Below are positions 34,750 through 56,294 of a stretch of 64,000 bases of DNA, in pieces. Source of the DNA: Candidatus Latescibacterota bacterium (GTDB taxonomy: Bacteria > Latescibacterota > UBA2968 > UBA8231); NCBI GenBank assembly GCA_964291625.2, contig OZ220089.1, positions 544,001-608,000 of the forward strand, read 5' to 3'. The notes under the pieces are model-generated. The model saw only the letters and a program-made list of their open reading frames with translations. It was not told the DNA's origin and made no database searches. Both the position numbers and the translations under genes were made by a program. Position 1 is the first letter of the stretch. Each line of letters begins with the position of its first letter.

Positions 34750-35658
34750 ATGAGGAACTGCCTTTCAGTGCTTGTCGCTCTCGGCCTCGTCTTCGGCCTG
34801 GTCGGGAGCGCCGACGCCCACATCGGGGAGAGGATCTTTCCCCTCTTCGAGCTCGGCGACGACGACATAGCCGACCTCGACTTCACGGACGACACGGTCG
34901 AGGACTGGGAGGACGTGGCCGGCGACGCGACGTACCTGCCCGTCGACTTCTTCGCGGATCCGACCGTGGGCGACGGCGCCCAGTACGATCCAGCCGACCT
35001 CGACTACCGCATCTGGTCCGCCTGGAACAGCTCCACTGGTACGATCTGGTTCGCCATGGAGCGCATCGACAACGTCTACTTCGGCAGGGAGTACGACGGC
35101 AGCAGCCCGTGGAACTACGAGGCCATCGAGGTCATGCTCGACGGCGACCACACGGGCGGCGACTACACCGGTTCGGCCAACCCGGACTGGAACGATGAGG
35201 AGAAGAAGCTCAACAACAACCGTCACGCGCAGCAGTACATCGGCGTGGCCGACGACCCCTCCGGCCGTCACGTCTTCTATCTCGGCGCCGGCGCTGAGTG
35301 GGTCAACGACCTGCCCTACGCCGACGGCGGAGGCTCCTCCGTGGGCGACGGGCCGACGGTCAGTACCATCGAGCTCTTCGTCACCCCCTTCGACGACCTG
35401 ATCTGGAACAGCCCCGATGACAGCCAGGCTTCCGACCTGTTCGACGGCAAGCTCATCGGCTACCAGATCTCGCTGCCCGACACCGACAAGGACGTTGGCC
35501 AGGATCGGGCGTTCCACACCCTGTCCGGTCAGGCTGCGACCTGGCGTTTTGCCGAGCGCTTTGTCGACGCCCGTCTGATCGGTCTGGACGACACTGGAGG
35601 CCCGCCCTCCGCCGTCGAAGAGAACTCCTGGGGCCGCATCAAGGCCGGGATGAAGTAG
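34750..35658 (+). CDS. Secreted acidic protein with C-terminal SAVEENSWGRIKAGMK tail; paralog of 4501-5445
   Basis: AAGGAG RBS; signal peptide ending ADA-H; shared motifs along the whole length with 4501-5445. Confidence 0.8.
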   Translation: MRNCLSVLVALGLVFGLVGSADAHIGERIFPLFELGDDDIADLDFTDDTVEDWEDVAGDATYLPVDFFADPTVGDGAQYDPADLDYRIWSAWNSSTGTIWFAMERIDNVYFGREYDGSSPWNYEAIEVMLDGDHTGGDYTGSANPDWNDEEKKLNNNRHAQQYIGVADDPSGRHVFYLGAGAEWVNDLPYADGGGSSVGDGPTVSTIELFVTPFDDLIWNSPDDSQASDLFDGKLIGYQISLPDTDKDVGQDRAFHTLSGQAATWRFAERFVDARLIGLDDTGGPPSAVEENSWGRIKAGMK

Positions 35659-35691
35659 GGTAACCGGTTTCTACTTGTTGATTCCCATGTG

Positions 35692-35730
35692 AAGAGAGGG
35701 AGGAGCCCATTCCTCCCTCTCTTTGCACTT
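35692..35730 (+). terminator. Intrinsic terminator / stabilising hairpin
   Basis: Perfect 13-bp stem aagagagggagga-gcccat-tcctccctctctt, then tgcactt; a second small hairpin aagtag..ctactt at 35653-35676. Confidence 0.65.
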
Positions 35731-35875
35731 GAGACGCGTTTCGGCACAAACGATTCGAGTGGTGAACGCGACCTCTGCAACTGCCGCGCAGTCCCGGACC
35801 CAGCCTCCCAGTCTTCGGGGCCGTTTTCCGGGCTGCAGTCTATGCTTGTCTACTACAACGGGAGGGAGCAGGGGA

Positions 35876-38368
35876 ATGAGAATCGGGATCTTCGCCGCGC
35901 TGGTCTTCTCGGTATGGGCGGTCGAGTCCGGCGCCGAGTTGCGCCTGTTCTCCATTCCCGGGGATGGCGACACCTGGGCCGGCATCCGGCAGGGGTCGGT
36001 CTCCGAGAACACGTACATCGAGCTCGTCGATCTCGAAGGCTACGAGGACGGCATCGGCCCCATCTTCCCGGCAAGATGGATCCCCGTTCCCGAAATACCC
36101 CTCGACCTGACCGCCGAAGAGGCGGACGCGTCCCTCGACTCCCTGCTCCTCGCTTTCTCCTACCACGTGACCCGCACCGACGTGGTGGCACCGGAGGACG
36201 TGGAGTTGGAGGACGGCACCGTCCTCGCCGCCGGGTCCATCCTGATCCCCCGATGGAGCCCCTTCCCCCGCAGCCTGGAAGGGGTGCAGTTGCTGCGCCG
36301 GGCCGGCGTCACCGAGATCCATGCCATGATCAACGTGGCCGAGTCCTTCCCCCGCCCCCCGGGCGCCGACAAGTACAACAAGAGTCTGAACCTCACCTAC
36401 CTCGCGATCTGGGAGAGAGCCCTCACCGGCATCCGCCGCCAGGAGGGCCTGGCCCGCGTCTTCGACGGCGACCCCACCAGCCACTTCGCCCGCATCGACC
36501 GGGTAGGACAGGACGTGACCCAGAAGTGGGGGCTCTACGTCGACCTGGGGCATTACTTCCCCGTCCGTCTCTTCCGCCTCTATCCCAGCCTCGAGGAGCC
36601 GGTGCGCGTCTCCGCCTACACCTTCTATCGCGGTCTGCCCGACACCGAGACGGAGATCGCCGGCCTCAGCCTGGAAGATCCGAATACAGGGCCCCTGGGT
36701 TACCCCTTGTTCAGCAAGATCGGGGATACCTTTCCCACCTGGCTCCCCGAGGCCAGCGTGCCGGTCAACCGGCAGGACACGATCGCCGTGGTCTTCGACC
36801 CGCCCGTGCAGATGCGCTATTCGAGGATGGACTTCGAGACTCCGCTGGACTACGACCTCGCCGAGATGGAGTACTACGCCGACGGTTTCGTGCGCAGCGC
36901 GGTGTACACCTCCAACGCCCTGCCTCTGCCCCCGGCAACCCTGGGCCGGATCTTCTGGGACGAGGAGAAGATCGGCGATCCCACCCGGTCGAGGATGATC
37001 GTCCGCGTGCGCACCGGCTTCACCACCGAGCCCGACGTGCTGTTCCAGATCAACTATCTCGACCGCGAGGTGGAGTGGCGCCGGGGCGAGGGAAACGCGA
37101 ACATCGTCGACAGGCGGCCCGGTTCCACCACCTGGGGCGAACTGGTGGACCTGGAGTCCAAGGACTTCAACATCGAGGCACGCGACATCTGGAGCGCCGC
37201 CCTGCCCGAGGACCGCGCCTCCATCCGCCTGAGCCGCGAGGACTACATCGGGCTTCCGGTGAGCGTGCGCGGCCGCATCGAGCCCGATCTCGAGTTCTGG
37301 AGCAGCACCCAGGTGGCCACCAACGGCGACCTGGTCCCGGCCCCGAGCGGGCGGCCCTATGTGCAGGTGGAGGTGGCCTTCACCAGCCAGTCACCGGAGT
37401 CGGCCACCATCCTGCGCAACCTCCGCATCGAGTACTCGTCCCCGCAGAGCACCGACGAGCTCTTCGGCGAGATCGCCCCGGCGGCTGAGGTCATCGCCGG
37501 CCGCGACACCTCCTTCGTGCTGGCCCTCCAGGCTTCCCTCGGCGCCGGCAACAGCGGCTTCAACCGGCTGCAGGTCTCTACCCCGGTGCGCACCGGGGGC
37601 ATCGAGGAACTGGAGATGGACCTAGGCGACGGCCAGGTGCTGCGGTTGGAGAACGAGGGCGAGGCGGAGGGAGAGATCCCCGCTGGGCGGTTCCGGGAGC
37701 TGCACGTGGCCGACGATCGGTTCGTCCTCGGCTTCCCCCGCCTCGAGCCGGCAGGCGACGGGGAGGCGCTCGAGGTGCTTCTGAAGGCCCGATTCCGCTG
37801 CCGGGTCATCGACTTCCGCACCCCCTTCACCGCCAGCGTCTTCCTCGATACACTGGGCCTGGAGGTGGAGCGCGACTACAGCTCCAGGGGGATCCTCGCC
37901 CTCGCCGGCGGTGAGAGCGCCCTCGACACCCTGGCCTTCTTCCTGCCTCAGCAGGCGACCAGCCGCGACATCGTCGACTTCGCGGCGACGGACAACCTCT
38001 CCGACCGCAACTCGCTGATAGTCACCGCCGATATCTCCGCCCAGAGCAGCCAACTGGTGAGCAACATCCGCATCGGGCCCAATCCCTTCACCCCCAACGG
38101 CGACGGCATCAACGACGAGATGACCGTCTCACTCGACGTGCAGCGACTGGTGACGCCGAAGCCCGTCCGTCTGGAGATCTTCGATCTCGGCGGCCGGCGC
38201 CTGCATCTCATCGAGCGCGAGTTGGCCTCGGGCGGCTATTCCCAGCAGTGGGACGGCCGCGACGCCAACGGGCAGTTGGTCCCACCCGGCATCTACATAC
38301 TCAGCATCTCCACCGATGCCGATGACGCCGGCGATGCCAGGACGCGCACCGTCTCCGTAGCCTACTGA
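35876..38368 (+). CDS. Secreted protein with discoidin-like region and C-terminal FlgD-Ig/CHU_C-type domain (830 aa)
   Basis: Signal peptide; FDGDPTSHF...YVDLGHYFPV; C-terminal PNPFTPNGDGINDE...IFDLGGR...WDGRDANGQLVPPGIYI...VSVAY. Confidence 0.8.
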   Translation: MRIGIFAALVFSVWAVESGAELRLFSIPGDGDTWAGIRQGSVSENTYIELVDLEGYEDGIGPIFPARWIPVPEIPLDLTAEEADASLDSLLLAFSYHVTRTDVVAPEDVELEDGTVLAAGSILIPRWSPFPRSLEGVQLLRRAGVTEIHAMINVAESFPRPPGADKYNKSLNLTYLAIWERALTGIRRQEGLARVFDGDPTSHFARIDRVGQDVTQKWGLYVDLGHYFPVRLFRLYPSLEEPVRVSAYTFYRGLPDTETEIAGLSLEDPNTGPLGYPLFSKIGDTFPTWLPEASVPVNRQDTIAVVFDPPVQMRYSRMDFETPLDYDLAEMEYYADGFVRSAVYTSNALPLPPATLGRIFWDEEKIGDPTRSRMIVRVRTGFTTEPDVLFQINYLDREVEWRRGEGNANIVDRRPGSTTWGELVDLESKDFNIEARDIWSAALPEDRASIRLSREDYIGLPVSVRGRIEPDLEFWSSTQVATNGDLVPAPSGRPYVQVEVAFTSQSPESATILRNLRIEYSSPQSTDELFGEIAPAAEVIAGRDTSFVLALQASLGAGNSGFNRLQVSTPVRTGGIEELEMDLGDGQVLRLENEGEAEGEIPAGRFRELHVADDRFVLGFPRLEPAGDGEALEVLLKARFRCRVIDFRTPFTASVFLDTLGLEVERDYSSRGILALAGGESALDTLAFFLPQQATSRDIVDFAATDNLSDRNSLIVTADISAQSSQLVSNIRIGPNPFTPNGDGINDEMTVSLDVQRLVTPKPVRLEIFDLGGRRLHLIERELASGGYSQQWDGRDANGQLVPPGIYILSISTDADDAGDARTRTVSVAY

Positions 38369-38410
38369 GGCCCCCCGAGAGTCCGAGAGTACGGAAAGAG
38401 AGGAATCGCC

Positions 38411-41400
38411 ATGAAACGGCATCTGACGTTGGGGGCGTACATCGCCCTGGTTTCCCTGCCGGAGGGTCTCCTGGCCCAGGCCGATCCCGCCTACCGACTG
38501 CAGGGCAACTCGATCCGGGTGGACCGGGTCTCCCACTGGAACAACTGGATCTACCAGAACGACCTGGTCACCAGTCTCAACGCGCCCGTCGGGGGTGTGA
38601 ACATCCTCGAGGTCGGTGCAGGCGGCCTGCGGCCCGTGTTCTTCCGCCGCAACGTCAACGTCGCTCCCACGGCCACGCACTTCACCTACAAGGACCAGGT
38701 CCGCGCCCAAGGGGCGTTGACCCAGGGGGGGACCTCCGCCAAGTCCAACGAAGGCCTGGCCGACAACGTCATCGACGGCGACCTGACCACGTTCTGGGAG
38801 CCGGACACGCCCGCCGACTACCCCAGCCGCCTGGACGCTCCCGGCCACTTCCATCTCGACGGCCTGCGCGAGTGGGAGGTGGAGATCGACCTCGGCCGGC
38901 TGGTCTTCGCCGACAGCCTGACCTTCATCTTCCCCTCGGACCAGTTCGAGGGCGAGTTCCTCGGCCAGCCGGTCAAGGCCTTCGCGGTCTTCGCCTCCAT
39001 GGGCGAACGCTTCCCCTTTCCCCTGGGCAACAATCTGCGCTTCACCCTCGTGGCCCAGGCGTCGACAGGCGTTGTCGGGGCGGACGGCGTGGAGCTGGTG
39101 CCCGTGCCCGGCACGGAGGGGAGGTACGCGCAGATGACCTTCGGCCTGGTGCCCCTGGACCGGGCCGACTGGGATCTCGACGGCATCCCCGACATCAGCG
39201 GGACCTTCCTCCAGTATATCCGCTTCAAGGCCACGGCTTCCGATCTCTGGCGCGATGCCTTCCTCGGGTCGGGCGAGGAGGCCCGTCTCGCCTATGAGGC
39301 CCTGCCCGCCGAGCGGCGCGGCGCCGTCATCTATCAGCGCCTGACGGCCGGCGGCCTGCTCGTGGACCTCCGGGACGACGGCAACCAGACAGCCCGGGAG
39401 AAGCACCAGACCCTGCCCGAGGCCAAGCGCGGGCCGATCCTGTACTACGTCAAGGAGGTCCCCCGCCTCGCCGAAGTCCAGGTCTGGACCCGGGGCGACA
39501 ACTACGCCTACCAGCCGGAGAGCCGCGCCGGCGACTCCTTCGAGCACGGCGGCCTGGGCGCGCCCGAGCTGGCCACCGACGGCAACTACGACACGGAGTG
39601 GCAGGCCAATACCTGGTCGCCCGTCTACGTCAAGGGCACCGCCTGGTACGACCTGGGCGCCGTGTTCTGGGTGGACAACCTCTCCGTGGTCAACAAGCGC
39701 ATCAACCAGAGCAACCACGGCGCCTTCATCGGCCCCGGCATTCTGGTCTCCGACGGCACCCTGCTCAAACCGGTTGCCATGGAGGACCGCGGCGACTTCA
39801 CCCAGCTCGAGGACGGGCTCCAGTGGCACAACATCATCGGCGAGGAGAAGCTCACCAACCGCACGTCCAAGGTCCGCATCTTCCAGGAGGATTTTCCCCT
39901 GCGCAAGATCCGCTTCCTGCAGATCCGCGATCTCGACATAACCGGCTCCAGTTCCGGCCGGTACGGCGCGCTGGCGACCCTGGCCGAGTTCCAGCTCTTC
40001 GGCGAGGGCTACCCGGTCAGCGTCTGGGCCTACTCGCCCCCCATCGCCCTGACCGACTCGCGGGGCGAGTTCGTCCGCAAGACCCTGCCCCGCATCAGTT
40101 GGGAAGGCGACATCATCGTCCGCGAGACCGACCCCCTCACCGGCGAGGCGGTCGAGCGCTTCGAGCCGCTGCACAGCGATCCGGATGTCCGCCTCCAGGT
40201 GCAGACCCGCACCTCCGACCAGACCGACAGCCTCTTCACCTACTTCGAGGTCGTCTCCGTCGCCGGCAGCGAGGAGCGCACGGAGGTCACCAAGGATCGC
40301 CACGACCAGATCGCCCTGCAGTGGGCGGCCTGGGAGTACTGGCAGACCCTGCCCAGCGACCAGCGGCACGCCTCGCGCCACGACGACGACGGCGACGGCC
40401 TGGAGGACGAGGACGAGATCGACTTCAAGGACAACGACGGCGACGGCCTGGTCGACGAGGACGGCAAGAAGCTGCGCCGGGCGCCGCGGTCGACCTTCGC
40501 CAGGGACGGAGAGTTGGCCTTCGTCGGCTGGAGCCCCTGGAGCGAGAGCTACCTGCCCACCAACGGCCTCAGCCAGGCGACGGTCACCTCTCCCAACCCG
40601 CGCAAGTTCATCCAGGTCCGCGTCAACATCCTGTCGGAGGATCCCTTCAAGACGGCCCGCATCCGCAGCCTGCGCATCGACCTGGCGCCTCCCGTCGCCC
40701 TGGAGCTGGTGGGGGAGCTGGCCCTGCTCAGCGACGACGGTGCCGGGCGGGCGCTGACCGATCTGGATGTTCTGCCCACCGACTACACCCCCCCCACCGG
40801 CATCGATCCCCTCAAGGCCCAGCGGTTCTCCTACTTCATCCGTTCCGCCGGGCCCGATCCGACCGTGCGCGGCGGCTTCGACGAGGTGCTGATCACCACG
40901 CCCCGCGCCTCCCGCCTCACCGGGGTCCGTCTCGGCCGAGTGGAGGTCGCCCGCAGGTCCTCCGCCCTCGACCCGGAGCAGGAGGAGACCGCCGCGGTGG
41001 CCACCCGCTTCGACCACGTCTTCGCCCCCGGCGGCGACGGGGTCTTCCGCAACGAGGCCGGTCAGATCCTGGAGCAGGTGGCGGCCGGTGCCGACTCCGT
41101 CTGGGTCCGTTTTCCCTTCTCCGTCAACACCGGCCTGCCGGGGGGGGAGCACGCCCTCATCGAGGTGCAGTTCGAGTCGCAGAGCTTCCGGGAAGGCATC
41201 GAGTACACCTCCTTCGTGCGCTCCTCCGACTCGGAGGAGGTGGTCTTCCAGCGGGTGGACATCGACTCCCGGGACGCCACCGAGCTGGTGGCCTCCTCCA
41301 CGACGAGGGTGGGCCTGGCGGAGCTCGTGGGACCGCTGATTCAGGACGTGGCGCTGGCCCGGGTCTTCACACCCAACGGAGACGGCGTCAACGACGAGTT

Positions 41401-41656
41401 GCCTGTGAGCTTCGCCCTCCTGAAGGTGCTGCAGGAGCGGCCCCTGGAAGTGGAGTTCTTCGACCTGGGGGGCCGCCTCGTCGGCCGGGGAAGGAATACG
41501 GCGGGAGCCCCCAAGGCCGGGTACAACACCTTCACCTGGGATGGCCGTGACCCGGGCGGCCGGCTGGTGGCGCCGGGGATCTACCTGTGCCGGATCAAGG
41601 TCGAGGCCGACGTCGAGGACAGCCAGTTCATGCGGCTCGTCCACGTGGCTTATTGA
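38411..41656 (+). CDS. Secreted protein with two discoidin-like regions, DxDGDG Ca-binding motifs and C-terminal FlgD-Ig domain (1081 aa)
   Basis: VIDGDLTTFW..EIDLGR; ATDGNYDTEW..YDLGA; DDDGDGLEDED/DNDGDGLVDED; FTPNGDGVND...WDGRD.GGRLVAPGIYL...VHVAY. Confidence 0.8.
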   Translation: MKRHLTLGAYIALVSLPEGLLAQADPAYRLQGNSIRVDRVSHWNNWIYQNDLVTSLNAPVGGVNILEVGAGGLRPVFFRRNVNVAPTATHFTYKDQVRAQGALTQGGTSAKSNEGLADNVIDGDLTTFWEPDTPADYPSRLDAPGHFHLDGLREWEVEIDLGRLVFADSLTFIFPSDQFEGEFLGQPVKAFAVFASMGERFPFPLGNNLRFTLVAQASTGVVGADGVELVPVPGTEGRYAQMTFGLVPLDRADWDLDGIPDISGTFLQYIRFKATASDLWRDAFLGSGEEARLAYEALPAERRGAVIYQRLTAGGLLVDLRDDGNQTAREKHQTLPEAKRGPILYYVKEVPRLAEVQVWTRGDNYAYQPESRAGDSFEHGGLGAPELATDGNYDTEWQANTWSPVYVKGTAWYDLGAVFWVDNLSVVNKRINQSNHGAFIGPGILVSDGTLLKPVAMEDRGDFTQLEDGLQWHNIIGEEKLTNRTSKVRIFQEDFPLRKIRFLQIRDLDITGSSSGRYGALATLAEFQLFGEGYPVSVWAYSPPIALTDSRGEFVRKTLPRISWEGDIIVRETDPLTGEAVERFEPLHSDPDVRLQVQTRTSDQTDSLFTYFEVVSVAGSEERTEVTKDRHDQIALQWAAWEYWQTLPSDQRHASRHDDDGDGLEDEDEIDFKDNDGDGLVDEDGKKLRRAPRSTFARDGELAFVGWSPWSESYLPTNGLSQATVTSPNPRKFIQVRVNILSEDPFKTARIRSLRIDLAPPVALELVGELALLSDDGAGRALTDLDVLPTDYTPPTGIDPLKAQRFSYFIRSAGPDPTVRGGFDEVLITTPRASRLTGVRLGRVEVARRSSALDPEQEETAAVATRFDHVFAPGGDGVFRNEAGQILEQVAAGADSVWVRFPFSVNTGLPGGEHALIEVQFESQSFREGIEYTSFVRSSDSEEVVFQRVDIDSRDATELVASSTTRVGLAELVGPLIQDVALARVFTPNGDGVNDELPVSFALLKVLQERPLEVEFFDLGGRLVGRGRNTAGAPKAGYNTFTWDGRDPGGRLVAPGIYLCRIKVEADVEDSQFMRLVHVAY

Positions 41657-41682
41657 GACAGAGCAAACAAAGGGAGGAATCT

Positions 41683-44433: not shown

Positions 44434-44442
44434 GAGGTGATC

Positions 44443-45198
44443 ATGACCAGGTGGCTCATTCCGCTGTTTCCGGCCCTGCTGCTTTCGGCCTGTTCCTACC
44501 GCTACTACGCGGACCCCCTCACGCCCCTCAGCGAGGCCGAGCAGGGGGAGAACAAGAGCGTCGCCGACGACGGCACGGTCACCCACACGCAGGGCCGCCT
44601 CGAAGTCGGCCTGCGGCCCATGACCGACGAGGAGCTGAACCGGCAGTTCAGCTCCTTCTCCATGGACGGGGCGGACTCCCGCAACCCCTACACCTTCGGC
44701 AACTCCACCTATTTCCGCACCGGGGAGACGCCCCAGCGCTTCACCGTTTTCCGCGCTACCATCTCCAACTACCAGTACCCGAAGGTCTACCTGGATCCCG
44801 AGAGGGTCTATATCACCACCTCCAACGGCCGCAAGTACTACGCCCTGACCCGCGAGCAGCTCTGGATCTACTACCACCGCTACGTCGGCGGAGGCCACGG
44901 CGGCGGCGACCCCGGGATGAGCGGCAACGCACACCACGTGTGGAAGGAGAGGGACGGCATCCTGCGCAACACCATGTTCCCCGACCTGCCGGTCTTCAGC
45001 GCCCAGGAGGCCGAGGGGTACCTGGTCTTCAGGCCCCTGGCTCCCGACGTGGAGGAGTTGACCGTCCACATCCCCGGCCTGGTGGTGCGCTTCGACTTCA
45101 GGGGCGACCCGGCAGAGTCGGTGGACATTGCCATGCGCTTCGAGCGGGAGATCGGCCGCGTCTACCCGGACGGCAGCAGGGTAGCCACAAACGAATAA
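44443..45198 (+). CDS. Hypothetical lipoprotein; paralog of 53812-54606
   Basis: GGAGG RBS; lipobox LSA-C; ADDG.V...GRLEV.LRP.TD.ELNRQF, NPYTFG, RFTVF, FSAQEAEGYLVF, RFERE.GR. Confidence 0.8.
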   Translation: MTRWLIPLFPALLLSACSYRYYADPLTPLSEAEQGENKSVADDGTVTHTQGRLEVGLRPMTDEELNRQFSSFSMDGADSRNPYTFGNSTYFRTGETPQRFTVFRATISNYQYPKVYLDPERVYITTSNGRKYYALTREQLWIYYHRYVGGGHGGGDPGMSGNAHHVWKERDGILRNTMFPDLPVFSAQEAEGYLVFRPLAPDVEELTVHIPGLVVRFDFRGDPAESVDIAMRFEREIGRVYPDGSRVATNE

Positions 45199-45224
45199 CA
45201 AGGTCTCCTTCGGACCATCACCTG

Positions 45225-45267
45225 ACTGCGCGGTGCCGCCGCAAGGAGGCGCCGCGCAGTTTCTTTG
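45225..45267 (+). terminator. Rho-independent terminator closing the 35876-45198 unit
   Basis: Stem actgcgcggtgcc / ggcgccgcgcagt followed by ttcttt. Confidence 0.75.
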
Positions 45268-45274
45268 ACAGGAC

Positions 45275-46969: not shown

Positions 46970-46982
46970 GCGAGGCTCATCC

Positions 46983-49004
46983 GTGCGGCTGAGGCTCGCG
47001 GCGCTGCTCGTCGGCCTGGGACTCGTGGCGCTCCTGGAGGGCGCCCTCCGGCTGGTCCCGGCCCTCCGGCCTCCGGCCTTCACCGTCCGCCTCGCCACGG
47101 TGGAGGACCGGACCCTCAACGCCGTCAATCCGGACTACCCGCAACGCTTCTTCGCCGGCGTTGCGGGGGACCTTCCCGCGGGCGGCGTCCGCATGACCCC
47201 CCGGCCCTACGTCGAACCCGCACCGCCGGAGGCCCTGCGGGTGCTCTTCGCCGGCGGGTCGACGGTGCAGGGCTTCCCCCACCCCAAGCGCCTGTCGGCG
47301 CCCTCCTGTCTCCAGGAGATGCTCCGGGACCTGCATCCCGGACGCCACATCGAGGTCTACAACGCCGGGATCACGGCCGCCTCGAGCTTCGCCGTTGCCC
47401 GCGCCGTGGAGGACGGTGTCCGGGCCCTGGAGGCCGACCTCGTGGTGGTCTACACGGGACATAACGAGCTCTACGGAGTGTACGGGGCCGCCTCCCTCGC
47501 CCAGGGCGGCCGGGGCCTGTGGAGCAAGAGGCTTCACTACGGGGTGATGCAATGGCGGATGACCCGCCTGGTGGTCCGGCTCCTCAGGGCCTTCGGCACC
47601 GACGAGGCTCAACCCGCGGACCTGCTGGAGACCATGTCGCGCACGGGCTCCGTCCCCGTGGACGACCCGAGACGGGAACGGGCCGCCGCCAACCTGGAGG
47701 CCAACCTGAGGGACGTGGCCGCCTTCTGCCGGGAGCGGGGCATCCCCCTGGTGCTCTGCACCCTGACCAGCAACGAGCGCGGCTTCGCGCCGGCCCGCGG
47801 CGCGCCCCCTCCGGGCGAGGAGGGCACGACGTACCTGGACCTGCTGCAGGCCGGCAGCCGCGGCCAGGCCTCCGCCGGCGCCCTGCAGGCCCTGGAAGAG
47901 GCCCGCGAGCTGCGCGAGGACGACGCCTACCTGCAATTCCTGCGCGGCCACCACCTGGAGCGCCTCGGGGACGGGTTGGCGGCGCGGCAGGCCTACCTGC
48001 AGGCCCGCGAGCTGGATACCCGGCCCTGGCGGGCGACGGCCCGGCTCACCGAGGTGGTGCGCCGGGTTGCGGCCGAGGAGGGGGCGCTCCTGGCCGAGGT
48101 GGAAGGGCGGTTCCTGGATCACAGCCCGGCCGCCGGCGTGGGCTGGGAGCTGATGGCCGACCACCTGCACCCCACCGCCGCCGGGCAGGCGCTGCTCGCC
48201 CGGGCCGTGGCCGCGGCCCTGCGCGATGCACCTCAACCCTGGGGATCCCCGTCCGAGGGGCTCCGGCGCCTCCAGGCCGACGACCGCTACCGCCAGCGCC
48301 TCGGAGACCTGCCCGTCGAGCAGCTCGCCGTCACCCGGGCCATGGCCCGCCTCTTCGCCTCTCCCCCCATGGACGAGGGCAACGAGAGCCGCGCCGAAGA
48401 TCTCCGCCGGCAGGGCGCCACCCTTGTTGCCGGGCTGAGCCCCGGAGAGCGGCGCGGGGTCGAGCGCTGGGTGCAGGGAGAAGGGCCGGACCTGCTGGCC
48501 CTGAATGTGGCCGAGGCCCTGTTCTCGGCGCGGGACTACCAGCGGGCGCGATCCTACTACCAGGCCTCCCGCCTGGAGCAGCCTTTCACGATCTGGAGCG
48601 ACTTGTGGGCCACCCTGCGCTGGGTCCGTTGCGGTCGGTTGGCTGGCCGCCCGCCGGACGAGACGGACAGGGCGGCCCTCGAGACGGTGCTGGATCGCCT
48701 GCGTTTCCTGGCCCCGGCGCCCGGATTCTCCCAAGGGCTGCAGGACTTCATCGAGGGGTACGCCCGCCACCTGCTGGGGCAAAGGGCCGGCGCCCTGGCC
48801 GCCCTCGAAGCGGCCATCCGGGATGAGGAGACACGGCGCAGGTTCTTCCCCGAGCTGCTCCATCTGCTCGTGATCGAGCTGATCGCCGCAGGCCGCCCCG
48901 GGGACGCCGAACGCTACGCGCTCCAAGTCTCCGCGGAGCTGCGCCAGGAGGCTGTCGGACGCGCCCTGGTGGAGCGCATCCGGGCAGGTGCAGCCCCACG
49001 CTGA
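46983..49004 (+). CDS. Membrane-anchored SGNH/GDSL hydrolase-like protein with TPR-like repeats
   Basis: N-terminal TM helix; block I AGGSTVQG, NAG, block III YTGHNE, block V DHLHPT; helical C-terminus. Confidence 0.78.
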   Translation: MRLRLAALLVGLGLVALLEGALRLVPALRPPAFTVRLATVEDRTLNAVNPDYPQRFFAGVAGDLPAGGVRMTPRPYVEPAPPEALRVLFAGGSTVQGFPHPKRLSAPSCLQEMLRDLHPGRHIEVYNAGITAASSFAVARAVEDGVRALEADLVVVYTGHNELYGVYGAASLAQGGRGLWSKRLHYGVMQWRMTRLVVRLLRAFGTDEAQPADLLETMSRTGSVPVDDPRRERAAANLEANLRDVAAFCRERGIPLVLCTLTSNERGFAPARGAPPPGEEGTTYLDLLQAGSRGQASAGALQALEEARELREDDAYLQFLRGHHLERLGDGLAARQAYLQARELDTRPWRATARLTEVVRRVAAEEGALLAEVEGRFLDHSPAAGVGWELMADHLHPTAAGQALLARAVAAALRDAPQPWGSPSEGLRRLQADDRYRQRLGDLPVEQLAVTRAMARLFASPPMDEGNESRAEDLRRQGATLVAGLSPGERRGVERWVQGEGPDLLALNVAEALFSARDYQRARSYYQASRLEQPFTIWSDLWATLRWVRCGRLAGRPPDETDRAALETVLDRLRFLAPAPGFSQGLQDFIEGYARHLLGQRAGALAALEAAIRDEETRRRFFPELLHLLVIELIAAGRPGDAERYALQVSAELRQEAVGRALVERIRAGAAPR

Positions 49005-49023
49005 CGTCTTTCTCCAGCCCGCC

Positions 49024-51117
49024 TCAGTCCCGGCCGGTACCGATCCGTCGATGGACTTCTGCGAGCAGGGCCTGAGCCTGGGGTGAAGGGCCCCTGGCCA
49101 GCACCTGCCGCAACCGCTCGACGGCGGCGCCGTGGCGTCCCTCTTCGGTGTCCATGAGGGCCAGGTTGACGTGGGCCTCCGGGTTTTCCGGGTCCAGCTC
49201 CAGGGCCTCCAGGAAGAGGGTCCGGGCCCTCTGAGTGCGCCCGTCGAGCAGGTGCAGGGCGCCCATGGCGACCAGGGCCTCGGGCCGCCTCTCCAGGGAC
49301 AGGGCGCGCCCATACGAGTCGAGGGCGGCCTCGGGCCGCCCGGCCTGGTGCAGGGCGCGTCCCAACTGGTAGTGGATCCGGGAGTCCCGCGGCCGGGAAG
49401 CCAGGGCCCGACGGAAGTGCTCGGCAGCAGCCGCGTAGCGCCCCTGGCCGTAGAGGAGACGGGCGTACTCGTAGTTGGCCATGCCGGATCCCGGATCAAG
49501 CTCCAGGGCGCGCAGCAGGGCGGCCCGGGCCTGCAGCGGCCGGCCCGCGTCCAGGTGGATGCGGGCGAGAAGCACGTGGGTGTCCACCCGCCGGGGATTC
49601 TCCGCCAGGGTGGCCAGGGCCGTCCGGCCGCTCTCCTCCAGGCGGCCCTGATGGTAGCAGGCCACGGCCAGATTGTGGCGCGCGTAGTTGTATCCCGGAT
49701 CCAGCTCCAGGGCCCGCCGGGAGTGGGTCTCGGACAGTGCGTACTCCCCCTTGCGCAGGTAGACCTCGCCCAGGTCGAAGTGGAGTTGGGCGTCCTCGTC
49801 GGTGGGGGCCGCCCTCCCCAGGTTGCACAGGACCAGGAGAACGGCCAGGAGCACCCCCAGCCTCGCCGCCTCCGGCCAGGATCTCCGGCGCAGGCTGCGG
49901 AGCAGACGCCAGGCCGCCAGGGCGGCAAAGACGATCAGCACGGGCAGGACCGGCATGCGGTAACGGGCGGCGGGGAAGAACAGCACGACCGAGGCCGTGT
50001 AGCCGAGAACGTAGAGCCGCAACAGGGCCGTTGGATCCCCGCGGATGCGGAGGCTCAGCCCCAGGCCGAGCAGGCCCAGGGGGGCGACCAGTCCGAAGGG
50101 CATGGAGAGGTGCCGGTCCCACAGCAGGAGACCGAGGATCCAGGAGTGCTGCCGGGCATGGTAGATGTCCTGGTTGCGCTTGACCTCCGGGCCGCTCCAG
50201 AAGTCCCGGGTCTTCCTGGCGAGGAGGCCGAGGTAGTCGAGGGGGTGGGAGGCAATCCAGGCCAGGCCCTTGCGCAGGAAGTAGGAGGACTTCGCCGCCG
50301 CGGTCACGTGGCCCGCCCTCGCCGGCTCGGAGACCATCTCCTCCCACTCCACCCCGGGCCGCAGGGCGACGGTGCGCTCGTAGTCGGCGTTGTTGCCTAT
50401 GAAGAAGTTGACGCCGCCGTTGGCCGAGACCAGGACCAGGCCCGGCTCGGCGGCCCAGTTGCGCACGGTGACGGGGAGGATCACGAGGAGTGCGCAGCCC
50501 GCGAAGGGCGCCAGGACACGCGCGGAGCGCCGCCGCCACAGGTGCCAGGCGCAGAAGAGAGCGACGAAGAGGAGGATGTTGGGGCGGGCGAGGACGGCCA
50601 GACCGGCCGTCACGCCGGCCAGGCCCCAGTCCCGGCTGCGCCCCCGGTCCTGGGCCACCACCAGGAGCTGGAGAAGCAGTAGGTCCAGGAATACCTCCAG
50701 GGGTACGGCCAGCAGCTCTCCCTCGAAGTAGAGGAAGGTGCCGCACAGGGCGGCCGCCCAGCCGGCGATCCGCGCCGCCGGCTCGCCGAAGCCGCGGCGG
50801 GCGAGGCCGTACACCAGCAGGCAGGAGAGGGCCCCCAGGAGGGCGTGGACGAGACGGATGCCGACGAAGTACGAGCCCGGCATGAGCCAGCAGACGAAGG
50901 CCAGCAGGTAGATGTAGAGGGGCGCCTGCCAGTAGGGCTCGGCACCGCCCCGGAGATCGCCGGCGGCGATGGCCAGGGCCTGGTCGAGGAAGGTGCGGGC
51001 GTCGACGACGGGTGCGTCGAAGAACGGGCTGGCGCCGTGCTGGTGGATGTAGCCCAGCCTCAGCGCCAGCGCCGCCAGCAGGAGGCAGCCGGCAAAGAGA
51101 CGGGACCCGCGGCCCAT
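49024..51117 (-). CDS. GT-C fold (ArnT/PMT_2, GT39-like) glycosyltransferase with C-terminal TPR array
   Basis: About 11 TM helices; first loop PVVDARTF, YWQAPLY, LARPN, GVNFFIGNN, ARYRMP; about 7 TPR repeats (ALELDP motifs). Confidence 0.85.
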   Translation of the reverse strand: MGRGSRLFAGCLLLAALALRLGYIHQHGASPFFDAPVVDARTFLDQALAIAAGDLRGGAEPYWQAPLYIYLLAFVCWLMPGSYFVGIRLVHALLGALSCLLVYGLARRGFGEPAARIAGWAAALCGTFLYFEGELLAVPLEVFLDLLLLQLLVVAQDRGRSRDWGLAGVTAGLAVLARPNILLFVALFCAWHLWRRRSARVLAPFAGCALLVILPVTVRNWAAEPGLVLVSANGGVNFFIGNNADYERTVALRPGVEWEEMVSEPARAGHVTAAAKSSYFLRKGLAWIASHPLDYLGLLARKTRDFWSGPEVKRNQDIYHARQHSWILGLLLWDRHLSMPFGLVAPLGLLGLGLSLRIRGDPTALLRLYVLGYTASVVLFFPAARYRMPVLPVLIVFAALAAWRLLRSLRRRSWPEAARLGVLLAVLLVLCNLGRAAPTDEDAQLHFDLGEVYLRKGEYALSETHSRRALELDPGYNYARHNLAVACYHQGRLEESGRTALATLAENPRRVDTHVLLARIHLDAGRPLQARAALLRALELDPGSGMANYEYARLLYGQGRYAAAAEHFRRALASRPRDSRIHYQLGRALHQAGRPEAALDSYGRALSLERRPEALVAMGALHLLDGRTQRARTLFLEALELDPENPEAHVNLALMDTEEGRHGAAVERLRQVLARGPSPQAQALLAEVHRRIGTGRD

Positions 51118-51166
51118 GGCCTCGAGACGGCCCTTCGCCGGCGCCTATGGACCGGGGATCAGCGGC

Positions 51167-53815
51167 TCAATAAGCGACGGAGAGGACGCCGGAGTGCCGG
51201 GTGGAGGTGTCGTCGGAGTCGACGGCGAAACGGTAGAGATAGATCCCGGGGGGCACGAGCAGGCCGTTCTCGTCGCGGCCGTCCCAGGTGAACCGCAGGG
51301 CGCCCGCCGCCGAGTCCCCGGCCTCGATCCGGGCCAGGCGGCGCCCGGACAGGTCGTGGATGTCGAGCTCCACCTCGACCTCCTCGGTGACGAGGAAGAG
51401 GTCGAAGGAGAACACGATCTCGTCGTTGATGCCGTCGCCGTTGGGGGTGAAGGGATTGGGGCTGACGAGAGGCGCCTGCACGACGCTGCCGATATCCTGG
51501 ACCACGACGAGCCGGGAGTTGGTGCCCACGTCGGGAGTGGCGTCCCCGTCCTCGGTGGGCTGGGGGATCGCGGTGTCTCCGAGCTCGTCGTTCCACAGGG
51601 AGCTGAGGAACTGCTGGGAGCCCCGGAAGAGCCGGGAGCGGAAGACGACCTCGATGTTCTCTCCGAACTGGAAGTGCCCGGCACCCATGGAAGGCAGCTT
51701 GATCGACAGCTTGTGGGCCCCGGTGACCGGGTCGGTGACGACAGACTGGGCGAACTGCCCCAGGCTGTCGGGGCTGCCCGCGACCGGGGCGAGACGGGCG
51801 GGATGGACCTCGAGGAGAGGATCGTCGCCGGTGCCGGCGGCGATCTCCGCCCAGGCCTGCCCGTCGACGCGCAGGGTGTCGATGCGGCTGTCGACGCTGG
51901 GAACGTCGATCTCGATCCGGTTGAAGACCATCGGATCCCCCGGCCCGAAGAGCGGCCGGAGGTAGTAGCGGAAGAGGGCCTCCTCGCCGAGGGGGACGCC
52001 TGACGGGAAGATCTCGGCCACCACGCCCCCGGAGACGAGGGGCGTGTCGTAGTCGAACTCGATGAAGTCGAGGAGGGCGGCGCCGTGCTGGGGGCCGTCG
52101 AAGTAGACGCGGAACTGGATGTAGCGGGTGCCTCCGGGCAGGGGAAGCTGGACGCCGGCATCGCTCCACTCGGACTCGGGCAGGCTCTCGTCGATGAGTC
52201 CGTCCGCCAGCTTGAAGGGCGCCGACCAGTAGCTCCAGCCACGTCTCCCGTCGGCGCCGACGTCGACGCCCAGCTCGTTGTAACGCAGCTCGCGCTCGGG
52301 GATGCGGCCGTCGGTGAGCTTGATCCAGGCGAAGAGGTCGAGAGGATCGCCTTGGTCGTCGCGGTCGTCCTCGAAGCCGGGGCCCAGCCGGCGGGCGTAG
52401 ACATGGGTGTCGAGCGAGTTGCCGACCCGGAACTGGATGCGCACATCGCCGCCGAGGCCGTCGCGGCGGCCCTTCCACCGGACCTTGCCCCAGTTGACCT
52501 GGTCGCCGGGCAGGTTCAGGTCGAACTGGCCTTCGTAGGCCTCCCGCTCGCCGCCGGAGAACTGCTCGATCTCGCGGTCGTAGCGGCGGGCGCGCGGCGT
52601 GGGGACACCCACGTCGATGACGGCCGAGGTGTACTGGCCGTCGATGGCGAAGCCGTCGCCGAAGTGGCCGAGCTCGGCGATCTGGCTGAGCTTGCCCTCG
52701 GGATCGATGGAACGGATGTCGACGCGGCCGGCGACATAGGTGGGGAAGCGCAGGTTCTTGATCACCGGGGTGAGCTGATCGCGGGTGGGGGAGACCAGGG
52801 TCCTGTTGATCCCGATGGTCTCGGAATGGAGGTTGATCCCGTGCTGGTCGCCGTATTGGATGTAGTAGTTGGCGATGGTTCCTCCCGGAAGGGTCGGATG
52901 GGGGCGGAAGGTTATGCGGTTGAGGTAGTAGTAGCCCATCAGGTTCATCGCGATCCCGCCGCGGCCGTACTTGGTGCTGTTGAACTCGGTGCGGAGGTTG
53001 CCGTCCACCGCCCTCTCCGCGTCCTCCCGGCGGATGACCCCCGCCGCCGCCCAGTAGTCGCCCGAGACGGGGTCGGAGACCTCGCGGCGGAAGCCGTACT
53101 CGCTCGGCACCACCATGTAGGGCCGCTGGGTGTCCTTGCCGGGGATGACCCCGCCGAACTCGCCGGCCTTGTAGCGCTGGTTGAGCATGTAGGCGAGGTT
53201 GCGCAGGCTGTCGAGGCGGATCGGCCGGATCCAGGTGGTCACGCCGCCGCCGTGTTCGGGCATGTCGGGATCCTCGTCCACGAGCCCGTCGCCGTCGTCG
53301 TCGACGCCGTTGATGGGATCCTCGTTGAGCAGGCCGTCCCAGTCGTCGTCGTACTGACTGTAGAGGCCGTCCTCGTTGAGCAGCCCGTCGCCGTCGTTGT
53401 CGATCTGCGGATCGGGACCGTCTTCGTTGATCAGCCCGTCGATGTCGTTGTCGATCAACTCGGGCGGGTCCTCGTCGATGAGGCCGTCGCCGTCGTCGTC
53501 GATATTGTTGTCCGGGTCCTCATTGAGCTGGCCGTCGCCGTCGTTGTCGACCTGCGGGTCCTCGGGGTCCTCGTTGATCGTGCCGTCGTCGTCGTTGTCG
53601 ATGAGGTCCACGGGATCCTCGTCGATGAGACCGTCGCCGTCGTCGTCGGCCAGCAGCTCCACCGCCCAGCTGCGCCCCAAGTCGAGGCGGCCCGTCACCG
53701 GCCGCAGGATCCATGGATGCGTGCCGTCGCCGACGCGCCAACTCTTGATCTCCGCCCAGCCGTCGCCGGCCAGGAGCAGGGCGCCCAGCAGAGCCAGTGT
53801 CGATAGCCTGATCAT
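51167..53815 (-). CDS. Secreted protein with eight acidic Ca-binding repeats, discoidin-like region and C-terminal FlgD-Ig domain (882 aa)
   Basis: Signal peptide; (D-[DN]-D-x-D-G-x-x-[DN]-E-D-[PG]) x8; AVDGNLRTEF; PNPFTPNGDGINDE...WDGRDENGLLVPPGIYL...LSVAY. Confidence 0.82.
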   Translation of the reverse strand: MIRLSTLALLGALLLAGDGWAEIKSWRVGDGTHPWILRPVTGRLDLGRSWAVELLADDDGDGLIDEDPVDLIDNDDDGTINEDPEDPQVDNDGDGQLNEDPDNNIDDDGDGLIDEDPPELIDNDIDGLINEDGPDPQIDNDGDGLLNEDGLYSQYDDDWDGLLNEDPINGVDDDGDGLVDEDPDMPEHGGGVTTWIRPIRLDSLRNLAYMLNQRYKAGEFGGVIPGKDTQRPYMVVPSEYGFRREVSDPVSGDYWAAAGVIRREDAERAVDGNLRTEFNSTKYGRGGIAMNLMGYYYLNRITFRPHPTLPGGTIANYYIQYGDQHGINLHSETIGINRTLVSPTRDQLTPVIKNLRFPTYVAGRVDIRSIDPEGKLSQIAELGHFGDGFAIDGQYTSAVIDVGVPTPRARRYDREIEQFSGGEREAYEGQFDLNLPGDQVNWGKVRWKGRRDGLGGDVRIQFRVGNSLDTHVYARRLGPGFEDDRDDQGDPLDLFAWIKLTDGRIPERELRYNELGVDVGADGRRGWSYWSAPFKLADGLIDESLPESEWSDAGVQLPLPGGTRYIQFRVYFDGPQHGAALLDFIEFDYDTPLVSGGVVAEIFPSGVPLGEEALFRYYLRPLFGPGDPMVFNRIEIDVPSVDSRIDTLRVDGQAWAEIAAGTGDDPLLEVHPARLAPVAGSPDSLGQFAQSVVTDPVTGAHKLSIKLPSMGAGHFQFGENIEVVFRSRLFRGSQQFLSSLWNDELGDTAIPQPTEDGDATPDVGTNSRLVVVQDIGSVVQAPLVSPNPFTPNGDGINDEIVFSFDLFLVTEEVEVELDIHDLSGRRLARIEAGDSAAGALRFTWDGRDENGLLVPPGIYLYRFAVDSDDTSTRHSGVLSVAY
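53267..53647 (-). repeat. Intragenic array of eight 16-17-aa DxDGDGLxxEDP repeats
   Basis: DDDGDGLIDEDP, DNDDDGTINEDP, DNDGDGQLNEDP, DDDGDGLIDEDP, DNDIDGLINEDG, DNDGDGLLNEDG, DDDWDGLLNEDP, DDDGDGLVDEDP. Confidence 0.9.
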
Positions 53816-54606
53816 CGCGCTCCTCCGTCGATTTCCATTGCGGCAGCGGTCGAGGGCTGGTTGGTCGAGAGCGTCCGCGTGCCGTCCGGGCTGAGGCGGC
53901 CCACTTCGCGCTCGAACCGGTAGCGGATGTCCACCGTCTCCACCGGCTCGTTGCGGTGGTCGAAGCGGAGAACAGTGTCGTAAATGGTCACCTCGACCCG
54001 CGAGACATCGGGATGGAGCACCGGGAAGACGAGATAGCCCTCGAGCTCCTGGCCGCTGAAGATGACTTCCTTCCGGAACATGCTGCGCCGGGCCAGATCG
54101 ATGCGCTCCTGGTAGCGGTCGTACTCGTTGCCCCGGTAACCGAGGACATAGGTCCGGTAGTAGCTCTTCAGCTGACTCACGTCGAGGCTCCAGTAGCGGC
54201 GGCCGTTGTCGGCCGTCAGCTCCACCTGGGTCGGGTCGATCTGAACCCTCGGGAAGGCGTAGTTCTTGACGTTCAGGTGAAAGACCGTGAAGCGGGACTG
54301 ACCCTCCCCGCCCTCCCGCAGCTCGGCGTCGCCGAAGGTGAAGGGGTTCGTCGAGACGGGCCCCGACCGGGAGTGGGAGGCGAACTGGCGGTTGAGCTCG
54401 GCGTCGGTGATCGGGCGGAGCCTCACTTCGAGGCGGCCCAGTGTGTAGGTCACCGCCCCGTCGTCGGCCACCGCTACCGCTTTCTCCTGCCCGTCGGAGG
54501 GCCGGAGTGGACCGGCGTAGTAGGTGTATCCACAGCCGCTGCCGAGGAGGAGGAGAAGGCTGGCCGCGGCCGGAGGCAGGCTCTTGTTCATTTGCATAGT
54601 TCCCAT
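53812..54606 (-). CDS. Hypothetical lipoprotein; paralog of 44443-45198
   Basis: Lipobox GSG-C; colinear similarity to 44443-45198; ATGA overlap with the downstream FlgD-Ig gene. The start may be 54606, 54597 or 54591. Confidence 0.8.
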   Translation of the reverse strand: MGTMQMNKSLPPAAASLLLLLGSGCGYTYYAGPLRPSDGQEKAVAVADDGAVTYTLGRLEVRLRPITDAELNRQFASHSRSGPVSTNPFTFGDAELREGGEGQSRFTVFHLNVKNYAFPRVQIDPTQVELTADNGRRYWSLDVSQLKSYYRTYVLGYRGNEYDRYQERIDLARRSMFRKEVIFSGQELEGYLVFPVLHPDVSRVEVTIYDTVLRFDHRNEPVETVDIRYRFEREVGRLSPDGTRTLSTNQPSTAAAMEIDGGAR

Positions 54607-56174: not shown

Positions 56175-56242
56175 CGTCACGGAAGTCGTAACTCACACTC
56201 TGGTAATGATTTGGGTCGTACAGGCGAAGACCTGCGAGGGCT

Positions 56243-56272
56243 AATGTACCCCGGTGGCCTCGAGCCTGTCAA
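56243..56272 (-). promoter_or_regulatory. sigma70-type promoter for rpoN
   Basis: TTGACA-18 bp-TACATT on the minus strand. Confidence 0.7.
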
Positions 56273-56278
56273 GGATTG

Positions 56279-56294
56279 AGGCACGGCGTTTGCT
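56279..56294 (+). promoter_or_regulatory. sigma54 (-24/-12) site in reverse orientation next to the rpoN promoter
   Basis: AGGCACGGCGTTTGCT matches TGGCACG-N4-TTGCW except at the first base; GG-N10-GC spacing is exact. Confidence 0.65.

What the first reader, a model, noticed from the sequence alone, without database searches (positions are those of the whole stretch)
34750..54606. 20-kb candidate export / surface-display system: paralogous FlgD-Ig cargo, novel beta-barrel, paired lipoproteins, chaperone and glycosylation enzymes
Seen: every gene in the block is envelope-targeted. There are three large secreted paralogs ending in the same domain (FTPNGDG.ND...WDGRD..G..V.PGIY...VAY-stop), a 916-aa probable outer-membrane barrel, two similar lipoproteins each in the same unit as FlgD-Ig genes in two facing arms, a double-parvulin lipoprotein, an SGNH+TPR protein, a GT-C+TPR protein and a tail-motif protein at the head. 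A terminator at 45225 closes the core unit. Established: FTPNGDGxND/CHU_C-type C-terminal domains act as type-B T9SS sorting signals in Bacteroidota, where cargo genes sit beside a dedicated PorP/SprF barrel. Inference: this is an analogous but distinct cargo + barrel + lipoprotein module outside Bacteroidota, either a T9SS-like shuttle or a chaperone-assisted adhesin/S-layer/nutrient-capture complex. I saw no PorK/L/M/N, SusC/D or other named secretion genes here.
Basis: partly seen in the sequence, partly recalled or inferred. Interest (0 to 1): 0.82.

Follow-up and report, generated by a model that had tools for sequence, protein, structure and literature searches.

The report
Giant barrel module with tagged lectins
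This block is one copy of an undescribed, many-times repeated gene set of uncultured Latescibacterota bacteria that joins a very large outer-membrane barrel of no known family to sugar-binding-like surface proteins with their own export tag and, in relatives, to a proton-driven membrane motor, so it probably builds an energised surface capture device.

Summary
All ten genes are there. The 916-aa protein models as a 22-24-strand outer-membrane barrel (pLDDT 88) with two large outer inserts and no close solved relative. The genome has 25 such barrels, and 29 of 29 CTD proteins ending in xxY lie within 20 kb of one (5 of 106 other CTD proteins do). Barrel and lipoprotein share a range (106 and 104 of 168 phylum genomes). 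The system is not distinct from T9SS: the genome has SprA, PorU and PorV, and the cargo CTD folds most like PorU's. In 7 genomes of 3 distant families a PorV/PorP-like small barrel lies directly behind the cargo gene, followed by big barrels, a giant TPR protein and ExbB-ExbD. That small barrel, not the big one, is the likelier shuttle. In one sister genus this motor operon adjoins the window's block. Best reading (0.45): T9SS-exported lectin-like proteins serve an ExbBD-energised capture/import barrel. Function and binding are untested. The facing lipoprotein pair is genus-specific. The scan noted this module before on other DNA (e1-3113252, e1-6648975, e1-1376129).

The parts
34750..35658 (+). 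Secreted CBM9-like protein with C-terminal SWGRIK tail (302 aa)
   Evidence: Family profile hits Thermotoga CBM9 1i82 at E 1e-4; Pfam CBM9_1 in 4 of 38 members; present in 40 of 41 long barrel loci
35688..35727 (+). Hairpin after the tail gene, terminator-like
   Evidence: z -3.5, 1 of 200 shuffles; scanner hit; hairpin at this place in 23 of 25 orthologous loci
35876..38368 (+). Cargo 1 (830 aa): signal peptide, base domain with inserted CBM32-like discoidin (about 36323-36895), Ig domain, PorU-like CTD (38045-38365) ending VAY
   Evidence: Model pLDDT 83, pTM 0.76; CTD vs PorU 6za2 Z 13.3, rmsd 2.4, 99 aligned; discoidin vs CBM32 4a42 Z 12.5, rmsd 2.6, 123 aligned
38411..41656 (+). Cargo 2 (1081 aa): long type with F5/8-like stretch, acidic DxDGDG repeats and the same CTD
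   Evidence: Pfam FlgD_ig 28.7 bits, F5_F8 E 8e-4; paralogues
41683..44433 (+). Outer-membrane beta-barrel of no named family (916 aa), 22-24 strands, outer beta-rich insert (about 42424-42963) and acidic Asp/Asn-rich insert (about 43192-43572)
   Evidence: Model pLDDT 87.7, pTM 0.86; alternating strands and insert composition; generic barrel matches only; no Pfam/NCBIfam hit
44443..45198 (+). Lipoprotein 1 (251 aa), family co-distributed with the barrel; DUF4352-like Ig fold is a weak lead
   Evidence: Lipobox LLSAC; 104 of 168 genomes; DUF4352 in 2 of 34 members at E 0.011, Atlas 0.79
45224..45261 (+). Hairpin plus U-rich tail closing the core unit
   Evidence: z -4.5; positional conservation 26 of 29; RNA contigs of two studies end at 45197 and 45188 while a DNA-like run spans it, a weak hint
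45275..46969 (+). Parvulin (SurA/PrsA-like) PPIase lipoprotein (564 aa)
   Evidence: Rotamase 51 bits; two stretches in PRK00059; present in 41 of 41 long loci
46983..49004 (+). Membrane-anchored SGNH/GDSL-family protein (673 aa)
   Evidence: Lipase_GDSL_2 45.4 bits, cut-off 32.9; the 4 other hits in the genome lie at barrel loci
49024..51117 (-). GT-C glycosyltransferase (PMT_2) with C-terminal TPRs (697 aa)
   Evidence: PMT_2 47.7 bits and TPR families; about 10 hydrophobic segments
51167..53815 (-). Cargo 3 (882 aa) with long DxDGDG acidic repeat array and the same CTD
   Evidence: FlgD_ig 43.4, CHU_C 29.3 bits; orthologue at the same place in three other genera
53812..54606 (-). Lipoprotein 2 (264 aa), paralogue of lipoprotein 1; this position was seen only in this genus
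   Evidence: 48.7% identity to lipo1; arrangement in relatives

Best explanation
The block is one paralogous copy of a lineage-wide envelope machine. Shown: gene content, linkage, folds. Inferred steps: (1) cargo proteins go through Sec, are helped by the parvulin lipoprotein and perhaps glycosylated by the GT-C enzyme; (2) their xxY-ending, PorU-like CTD is a separate T9SS sorting class that leaves SprA on a shared PorV/PorP-like small barrel encoded elsewhere in this genome (C1:289072, near-identical copy C2:448606) and is probably not cleaved; (3) on the surface the CBM32-like and CBM9-like proteins act as binding subunits for the 22-24-strand barrel, whose acidic outer loops probably bind calcium; (4) an inner-membrane ExbB-ExbD motor, a TonB-like DUF4159 protein and an 1,100-aa TPR protein, shared in trans, energise the barrel. 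It would work like a SusCD utilisome built from unrelated parts, capturing and importing glycans or other polymers.
For: 29 of 29 xxY-CTD genes lie within 20 kb of a barrel, 5 of 106 other CTD genes do, and 9% of the genome is that close. Barrel and lipoprotein occur in the same families; 4 barrel-less genomes have no full-length xxY-CTD match, 1 barrel-bearing one has. SprA, PorU and PorV are present, SprA in 163 of 168 genomes. The CTD's best fold match is PorU. The order cargo, small barrel, big barrel(s), TPR, ExbB, ExbD, ExbD, lipoprotein recurs in families f8, f10, f13. The motor operon lies 20-24 kb from this block's orthologue in 18 of 18 near-complete genomes of genus g13 (coordinates; one read in full). 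DUF4159 proteins have an N-terminal hydrophobic segment, with His in 10 of 21 rows. Cargo and tail folds are carbohydrate-binding types. DUF6785 membrane proteins lie at 4 barrel loci, with FG-GAP/ASPIC, PcRGLX-like and sulfatase genes nearby. Shared shuttles for unlinked type-B cargo have a precedent (PMC12618676, abstract).
Against: No substrate, transport or binding was shown. The barrel has no TonB-dependent plug match and only about 80 residues before its first strand, so gating is unexplained. The window itself holds no motor, small barrel or catabolic enzyme; in this genus the motor operon is about 300 kb away. The 18 linked genomes are one genus and not independent. Small-barrel scores are under the family cut-offs (61-84 against 90 bits). 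CBM32 folds also serve non-glycan roles (one search lists IFT25 and DOC domains). His is missing from about half of the DUF4159 anchors. In two f1 genomes the operon has big barrels and no small barrel, which fits the big barrel being the carrier.
Confidence: 0.45

Rival explanations
1. The big barrel is itself the dedicated carrier and anchor for xxY-CTD cargo, an oversized stand-in for PorP/SprF; the module only displays adhesins.
For: Perfect xxY-barrel linkage; a cargo gene directly precedes the barrel in most loci, as for type-B pairs (PMC12618676, introduction); barrel number scales with cargo number (25 and 29), small barrels do not (2 near-identical copies); G107 and G098 operons lack the small barrel.
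Against: No PorP/PorV family match for the big barrel; a PorV-family gene takes the slot directly behind the cargo in 7 distant genomes; the motor operon would be unexplained; known carriers are far smaller (recalled).
Confidence: 0.22
2. An Agl-Glt-like trans-envelope motor that moves or tensions surface adhesins, or builds an envelope polymer, with no import role.
For: ExbB + two ExbD + TonB-like protein + giant TPR + several barrels + lipoprotein + adhesin-like cargo is the Agl-Glt parts list (PMC3169522, passages); GT-C and SGNH genes suit envelope-glycan work; GldM and GldN were not found.
Against: No TonB_C domain in the transducer and much larger barrels than GltA/B/H (PMC3169522 table); no phylogeny to AglR/GltD was run; 11-12 parallel loci with varied lectin domains suit substrate range better than one motility track (inference).
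Confidence: 0.17
3. A structural outer-membrane lattice: trimeric SlpA-like barrels with calcium-binding loops carry glycosylated S-layer-like proteins.
For: SlpA_C is the only Pfam family hit by barrel members (5 of 25, best E 2.9e-4); SlpA 8ae1 has the highest query TM-score, 0.30; the conserved N-terminal 80 residues are low-confidence in the monomer; acidic repeats and GT-C.
Against: TM 0.30 with rmsd 19 is generic; no SLH hit; barrel number per operon varies from 1 to 3; the motor linkage is unexplained.
Confidence: 0.1
4. An usher-like assembly platform that polymerises the Ig-domain cargo into fibres with the parvulin as chaperone.
For: About 24 strands with an inserted beta-rich domain; FimD appears among the generic matches (Z 11.8, rmsd 6.6, 320 aligned); cargo ends in an invariant aromatic strand.
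Against: By turn pattern the insert faces outward (my reading), whereas the usher plug is tied on the periplasmic side (recalled); the CTD is a complete PorU-like sandwich; no PapD-like chaperone hit.
Confidence: 0.05

Closest known systems
T9SS type-B CTD cargo with PorP/SprF carriers (SprB-SprF, PG1035-PorP-PorE; PMC12618676 abstract, introduction and one results section; PMC9143113 abstract; PMC12635249 passages)
   Same: Sec signal plus PNGDG-containing CTD; own sorting class; genes linked to barrels; PorV/PorP-like gene directly behind the cargo in distant relatives; SprA, PorU and PorV in the genome.
   Different: CTD under the TIGR04131 cut-off, folds like the PorU CTD and ends in xxY; the linked barrel here is a 916-aa protein of no known family; GldM and GldN not found; ExbBD-TPR-DUF4159 operon linked instead.
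SusC/SusD utilisomes and TonB-dependent transporters (recalled)
   Same: Large outer-membrane barrel, lipoprotein, surface glycan-binding proteins, ExbB/ExbD, many paralogous loci beside transporters and hydrolases.
   Different: No plug or TBDT family match, no SusD, binding proteins carry T9SS-type CTDs instead of lipid anchors, transducer is DUF4159 rather than TonB_C.
Agl-Glt / Nfs machinery and its core complex (PMC3169522, passages)
   Same: ExbB + two ExbD, TonB-like membrane protein, large TPR protein, outer-membrane barrels, repeated paralogous clusters.
   Different: Barrels of about 900 aa instead of 209-275 aa, T9SS-type cargo, no TonB_C domain; homology not tested by tree.
Deinococcus SlpA barrel (PDB 8ae1, 7zgx; Pfam SlpA_C)
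   Same: Very large barrel with large loops; weak Pfam and fold hints.
   Different: TM 0.30 or less; fewer strands by my count; no SLH domain found.

Membership tests
T9SS type-B cargo | CTD reaches TIGR04131 / CHU_C cut-off | tested here: inconclusive
   TIGR04131 21 bits against 35; CHU_C above 27 bits in 2 of 3 cargo; 62 of 62 family members hit CHU_C at E 0.01
T9SS type-B cargo | N-terminal Sec signal and SprA in the genome | tested here: met
   Signal-like N-termini by inspection; SprA 607 bits
T9SS type-B cargo | porP/sprF-family gene directly downstream | tested here: not met
   In the window the downstream gene has no PorP/PorV hit; in 7 distant genomes a sub-cut-off PorV-family gene is there
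T9SS type-B cargo | CTD uncleaved, protein held by its carrier | not testable with these tools
   Needs proteomics or pull-down
PorP/SprF or PorV carrier (for the 916-aa barrel) | Sequence family and size of about 300-400 aa | tested here: not met
   No family hit; 916 aa, 22-24 strands
Canonical T9SS (genome level) | SprA, PorU, PorV | tested here: met
Canonical T9SS (genome level) | GldK/L/M/N energy chain | tested here: inconclusive
   GldM and GldN not found, GldK only under cut-off; GldM_4th 0 of 61 genomes; no control genome passed a cut-off; GldL not searched
TonB-dependent transporter / SusC | N-terminal plug domain before a 22-strand barrel | tested here: not met
   No Plug or TBDT Pfam hit in 25 members; about 80 residues before the first strand
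TonB-dependent transporter / SusC | Same barrel fold | tested here: inconclusive
   Generic matches only, e.g. 3qlb Z 11.8, rmsd 4.4, 228 aligned
TonB-dependent transporter / SusC | Linked ExbB/ExbD motor | tested here: met
   At other loci of this genome and in relatives; not in the window
Agl-Glt core complex | AglR/Q/S-like motor plus TPR proteins in one cluster | tested here: met
   As a parts list
Agl-Glt core complex | GltG-type transducer with TonB_C domain | tested here: not met
   Transducer candidates hit DUF4159 only
Agl-Glt core complex | Phylogenetic placement with AglR/GltD homologues | not tested
   No tree was built
Chaperone-usher | Usher family domains and PapD-like chaperone | tested here: not met
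   No such Pfam hit in barrel members or scanned neighbours
SlpA/OmpM | SLH domain plus trimeric barrel | tested here: inconclusive
   SlpA_C weak in 5 of 25, no SLH hit; oligomer state not tested

The most novel reading that the evidence does not exclude
Latescibacterota have a class of proton-energised outer-membrane transporter unrelated to TonB-dependent receptors: a 24-strand barrel with calcium-binding outer loops, driven by an ExbBD-DUF4159-TPR chain and equipped with lectin subunits that a third T9SS sorting class (xxY CTD) delivers, in a T9SS that runs without GldLM/GldKN.
Probability: 0.35. Interest if true: 0.9.

Novelty: new variant of a known kind. Interest (0 to 1): 0.72.

Why it matters
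The module is in 106 of 168 genomes of the phylum, in all 76 of this family, and takes up to 25 barrel genes here; RNA libraries of sponge and marine communities hold it. It points to how these uncultured symbionts feed or attach. It adds a large barrel family with no solved relative, a C-terminal signal class that sorts cleanly with it, and a candidate role for DUF4159 as a TonB-like transducer. It also makes testable how a T9SS translocon works outside Bacteroidota, where the usual motor was not found. Seven paper searches found nothing on it: Latescibacter* with type IX secretion, T9SS or FlgD, DUF4159 with ExbB, two broader sets gave 0 papers, and one listed none on this module; the library lacks most subscription papers.

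Tried and rejected
Complex prediction of barrel (model residues 16-890) with the cargo 2 CTD gave no answer, score 0.00 in two runs, controls not folded; it is not used either way. Fold searches of the barrel found no close match: best query TM 0.30, best Z 13.8 at rmsd 11; the inserts were not folded alone, so a known fold there is not excluded. Profile searches of PDB sequences with barrel alignments gave only chance hits; the lipoprotein gave none. PF11751 found nothing in the genome, but no control rang. My scans of the SGNH gene, and its rows, used the antisense frame by mistake; redone. The terminator scan found 10 sites against 6.9 expected and missed the 45224 hairpin. Contig depth in RNA runs cannot rank genes, so the high depth over the tail gene is not used; one run (X1) is flat and may hold DNA. 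The cargo-core profile also hits one weak site (E 1e-8 to 1e-12) in 22 of 31 barrel-less f4 genomes and one strong site in barrel-less G032 (75% complete), and misses barrel-bearing G008, so cargo tracks the barrel less cleanly than the lipoprotein. One locus labelled Planctomycetota (L066) lies in a genome with 17 barrel matches; I treat the label as doubtful and claim no second phylum. 'Paired lipoproteins in facing arms' as a design feature was rejected. No tree was built.

Full report
Setting. The window is C1:544001-608000 of a 5.9-Mb, two-contig genome, 95% complete and 6.6% contaminated. Named homologues are labelled Ca. Latescibacterota or Gemmatimonadota. RNA libraries of sponge and marine communities hold the stretch (6 RNA runs of 3 studies at a share of 0.2 or more).

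Observation. The left arm reads tail, cargo 1, cargo 2, barrel, lipoprotein 1, PPIase, SGNH on +; the right arm reads lipoprotein 2, cargo 3, GT-C on -, behind rpoN. Gaps are 9-76 bases except 217 after the tail gene. Two hairpins punctuate the left arm: 35688-35727 (z -3.5) and 45224-45261 (z -4.5). A strong fold follows the same genes in 23 of 25 and 26 of 29 orthologous loci, with a U-rich tail in about half (crude shuffle). RNA contigs of two studies end just before the second hairpin while a DNA-like run spans it, a weak hint only.

The barrel. AlphaFold2 on 147 sequences gives pLDDT 87.7, pTM 0.86. From the pattern of short turns I count 24 membrane strands; the first two are weakly amphipathic, so 22-24. 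There is a low-confidence but conserved N-terminal 80 residues, a 180-residue beta-rich insert and a 127-residue insert that is 30% Asp+Asn and the best conserved region. Both inserts face outward by turn pattern (inference); calcium binding is inferred from DxNxD-like motifs. No Pfam or NCBIfam family matches the window protein; among 25 members only SlpA_C rings, weakly, in 5. Solved barrels match only generically (LptD, MtrB, SlpA, FimD, porins). phmmer finds 724 representatives at E 0.001.

The other parts. Cargo 1 models at pLDDT 83: a CBM32-like discoidin (Z 12.5, rmsd 2.6, 123 aligned) inside a base domain, an Ig domain, and a CTD whose best match is the PorU CTD (Z 13.3, rmsd 2.4, 99 aligned; PorZ Z 10.7). 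The CTD profile also hits FlgD and C5a peptidase domains with the same PNGDG motif, so the motif alone does not prove a type-B signal. The tail protein is CBM9-like. The lipoprotein has only a weak DUF4352 lead. PPIase, SGNH and GT-C families are confirmed.

Recurrence. This genome has 26 barrel ORFs (25 genes, one split in two) in 11-12 clusters and 11 lipoproteins, 9 of them at barrel clusters. Of 135 ORFs with a C-terminal CTD match, 29 end in xxY and all 29 lie within 20 kb of a barrel; 5 of 89 ending in K/R and 0 of 17 others do; 9% of the genome is that close (the profile was built from xxY domains, the class from the last residues). Of 59 loci from other genomes, 41 are 20 kb or longer: cargo in 41, PPIase 41, tail 40, lipoprotein 25, GT-C 4. 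Across 168 phylum genomes the barrel is in 106 and the lipoprotein in 104, in the same families; 61 genomes of four families have neither. Kin are not independent, so no statistic is given.

T9SS. The genome has SprA, three C25 proteins and a porU-porV pair above cut-off. SprA is in 163 of 168 genomes, including those without the barrel, so the module is an add-on, not the translocon. GldM and GldN were not found and GldK only under cut-off, without a positive control.

Other barrel clusters of this genome carry ExbB, one or two ExbD, DUF4159 proteins and a 1,080-aa TPR protein; DUF6785 membrane proteins lie at four, with FG-GAP/ASPIC, PcRGLX-like and sulfatase genes. In G135, G113 and G154 (three other genera) the window's block is conserved through cargo 3; in G135 it runs on into tail, lipoprotein, a 311-aa PorV/PorQ/PorP-like barrel, TPR, ExbB and DUF4159. 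The ExbB orthologue is 20-24 kb from the lipoprotein 1 orthologue in 18 of 18 near-complete genomes of genus g13 and 33 kb in G110, but about 300 kb away here (coordinates). In distant families the module is one operon: cargo, small barrel, one to three big barrels, TPR, ExbB, ExbD, ExbD, often DUF4159, lipoprotein. The small barrel directly follows the cargo in G011 and in 6 of 12 regions (G008, G015, G016, G022, G023, G031); two regions (G107, G098) lack it and four were cut short or differently arranged. ExbB was in 9 of the 12. The DUF4159 proteins begin with a hydrophobic segment that holds a His in 10 of 21 rows, as TonB anchors do (recalled).

Mechanism. Most likely (0.45) the xxY proteins are T9SS substrates of their own class, carried by the shared small barrel, and serve as surface binding subunits of an ExbBD-energised barrel that captures and imports polymers. 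Linkage, folds and T9SS presence are shown; export route, contacts, energisation and substrate are inferred. Rivals: the big barrel as carrier and anchor (0.22), an Agl-Glt-like adhesion or envelope motor (0.17), an SlpA-like lattice (0.10), an usher (0.05).

Literature. PMC12618676 (abstract, introduction, one results section) describes type-B cargo, cognate and shared shuttles, and calls T9SS exclusive to Bacteroidota; PMC11285876 (passages) allows other FCB phyla; PMC9143113 (abstract) and PMC12635249 (passages) describe carrier anchoring; PMC3169522 (passages) defines the Agl-Glt core complex; PMC4454575 (passages) covers Latescibacteria transport and those passages do not mention this module. 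Supplements were not read. Searches gave 0 papers; one search listed none on this module.

Verdict. A real, undescribed, lineage-wide envelope module. It fails a defining feature of each family tested, but its parts list follows known kinds (T9SS cargo with carrier; ExbBD trans-envelope motors), so I file it as a new variant, with a 0.35 chance that it is a new class of energised transporter. The scan noted the module before at other loci; what I add from this window is the CTD class count, the phylum profiles, the small-barrel position and the link of this block to the motor operon.

Noticed in passing
L081 (G000 C1:1101061-1104954): The PorU next to porV reads TAASA about 30 residues after its GHG motif, where another C25 protein of the genome reads ALSCL; the catalytic Cys (recalled position) seems replaced.
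   Followed up: partly
genome-wide; window 34750-35658: 54 ORFs end in an [ST]WGx[IVL]K tail, a second C-terminal tag; only about 10 of 29 CBM9-like tail proteins are at barrel loci, others form tandem arrays (C1:3.47-3.55 Mb, C2:1.083-1.089 Mb).
   Followed up: partly
window 54666-61012: rpoN, lptB, an LptA/LptC-like 629-aa gene and a CTP synthase-like gene lie directly upstream of lipoprotein 2 on the same strand, 59 bases from it; read-through into the right arm is possible in this genus.
   Followed up: no
G000 C1:4212351-4216405, C1:302499-305001, C1:1778360-1780567: One barrel, one cargo and one SGNH paralogue are each split into two ORFs; decay or sequencing error.
   Followed up: no
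G000 C1:289072 and C2:448606: Two 97% identical copies of the PorV/PorP-like small barrel; a similar pair is in most g13 genomes.
   Followed up: partly
L001, L004, L011, L012: Each three-barrel locus starts with one K-ending FlgD-Ig protein of about 620-750 aa before the xxY cargo; these are 4 of the 5 K/R-ending CTD genes near barrels.
   Followed up: partly
L081:2895-6413: A gene with an M6-peptidase-like stretch (by eye) and a CTD ending RLAVSR follows porV.
   Followed up: no
window 35936-37440: The cargo base domain has a weak fold match to a Haloferax tailed virus tail protein (9h4p, Z 9.9, rmsd 12.6).
   Followed up: no
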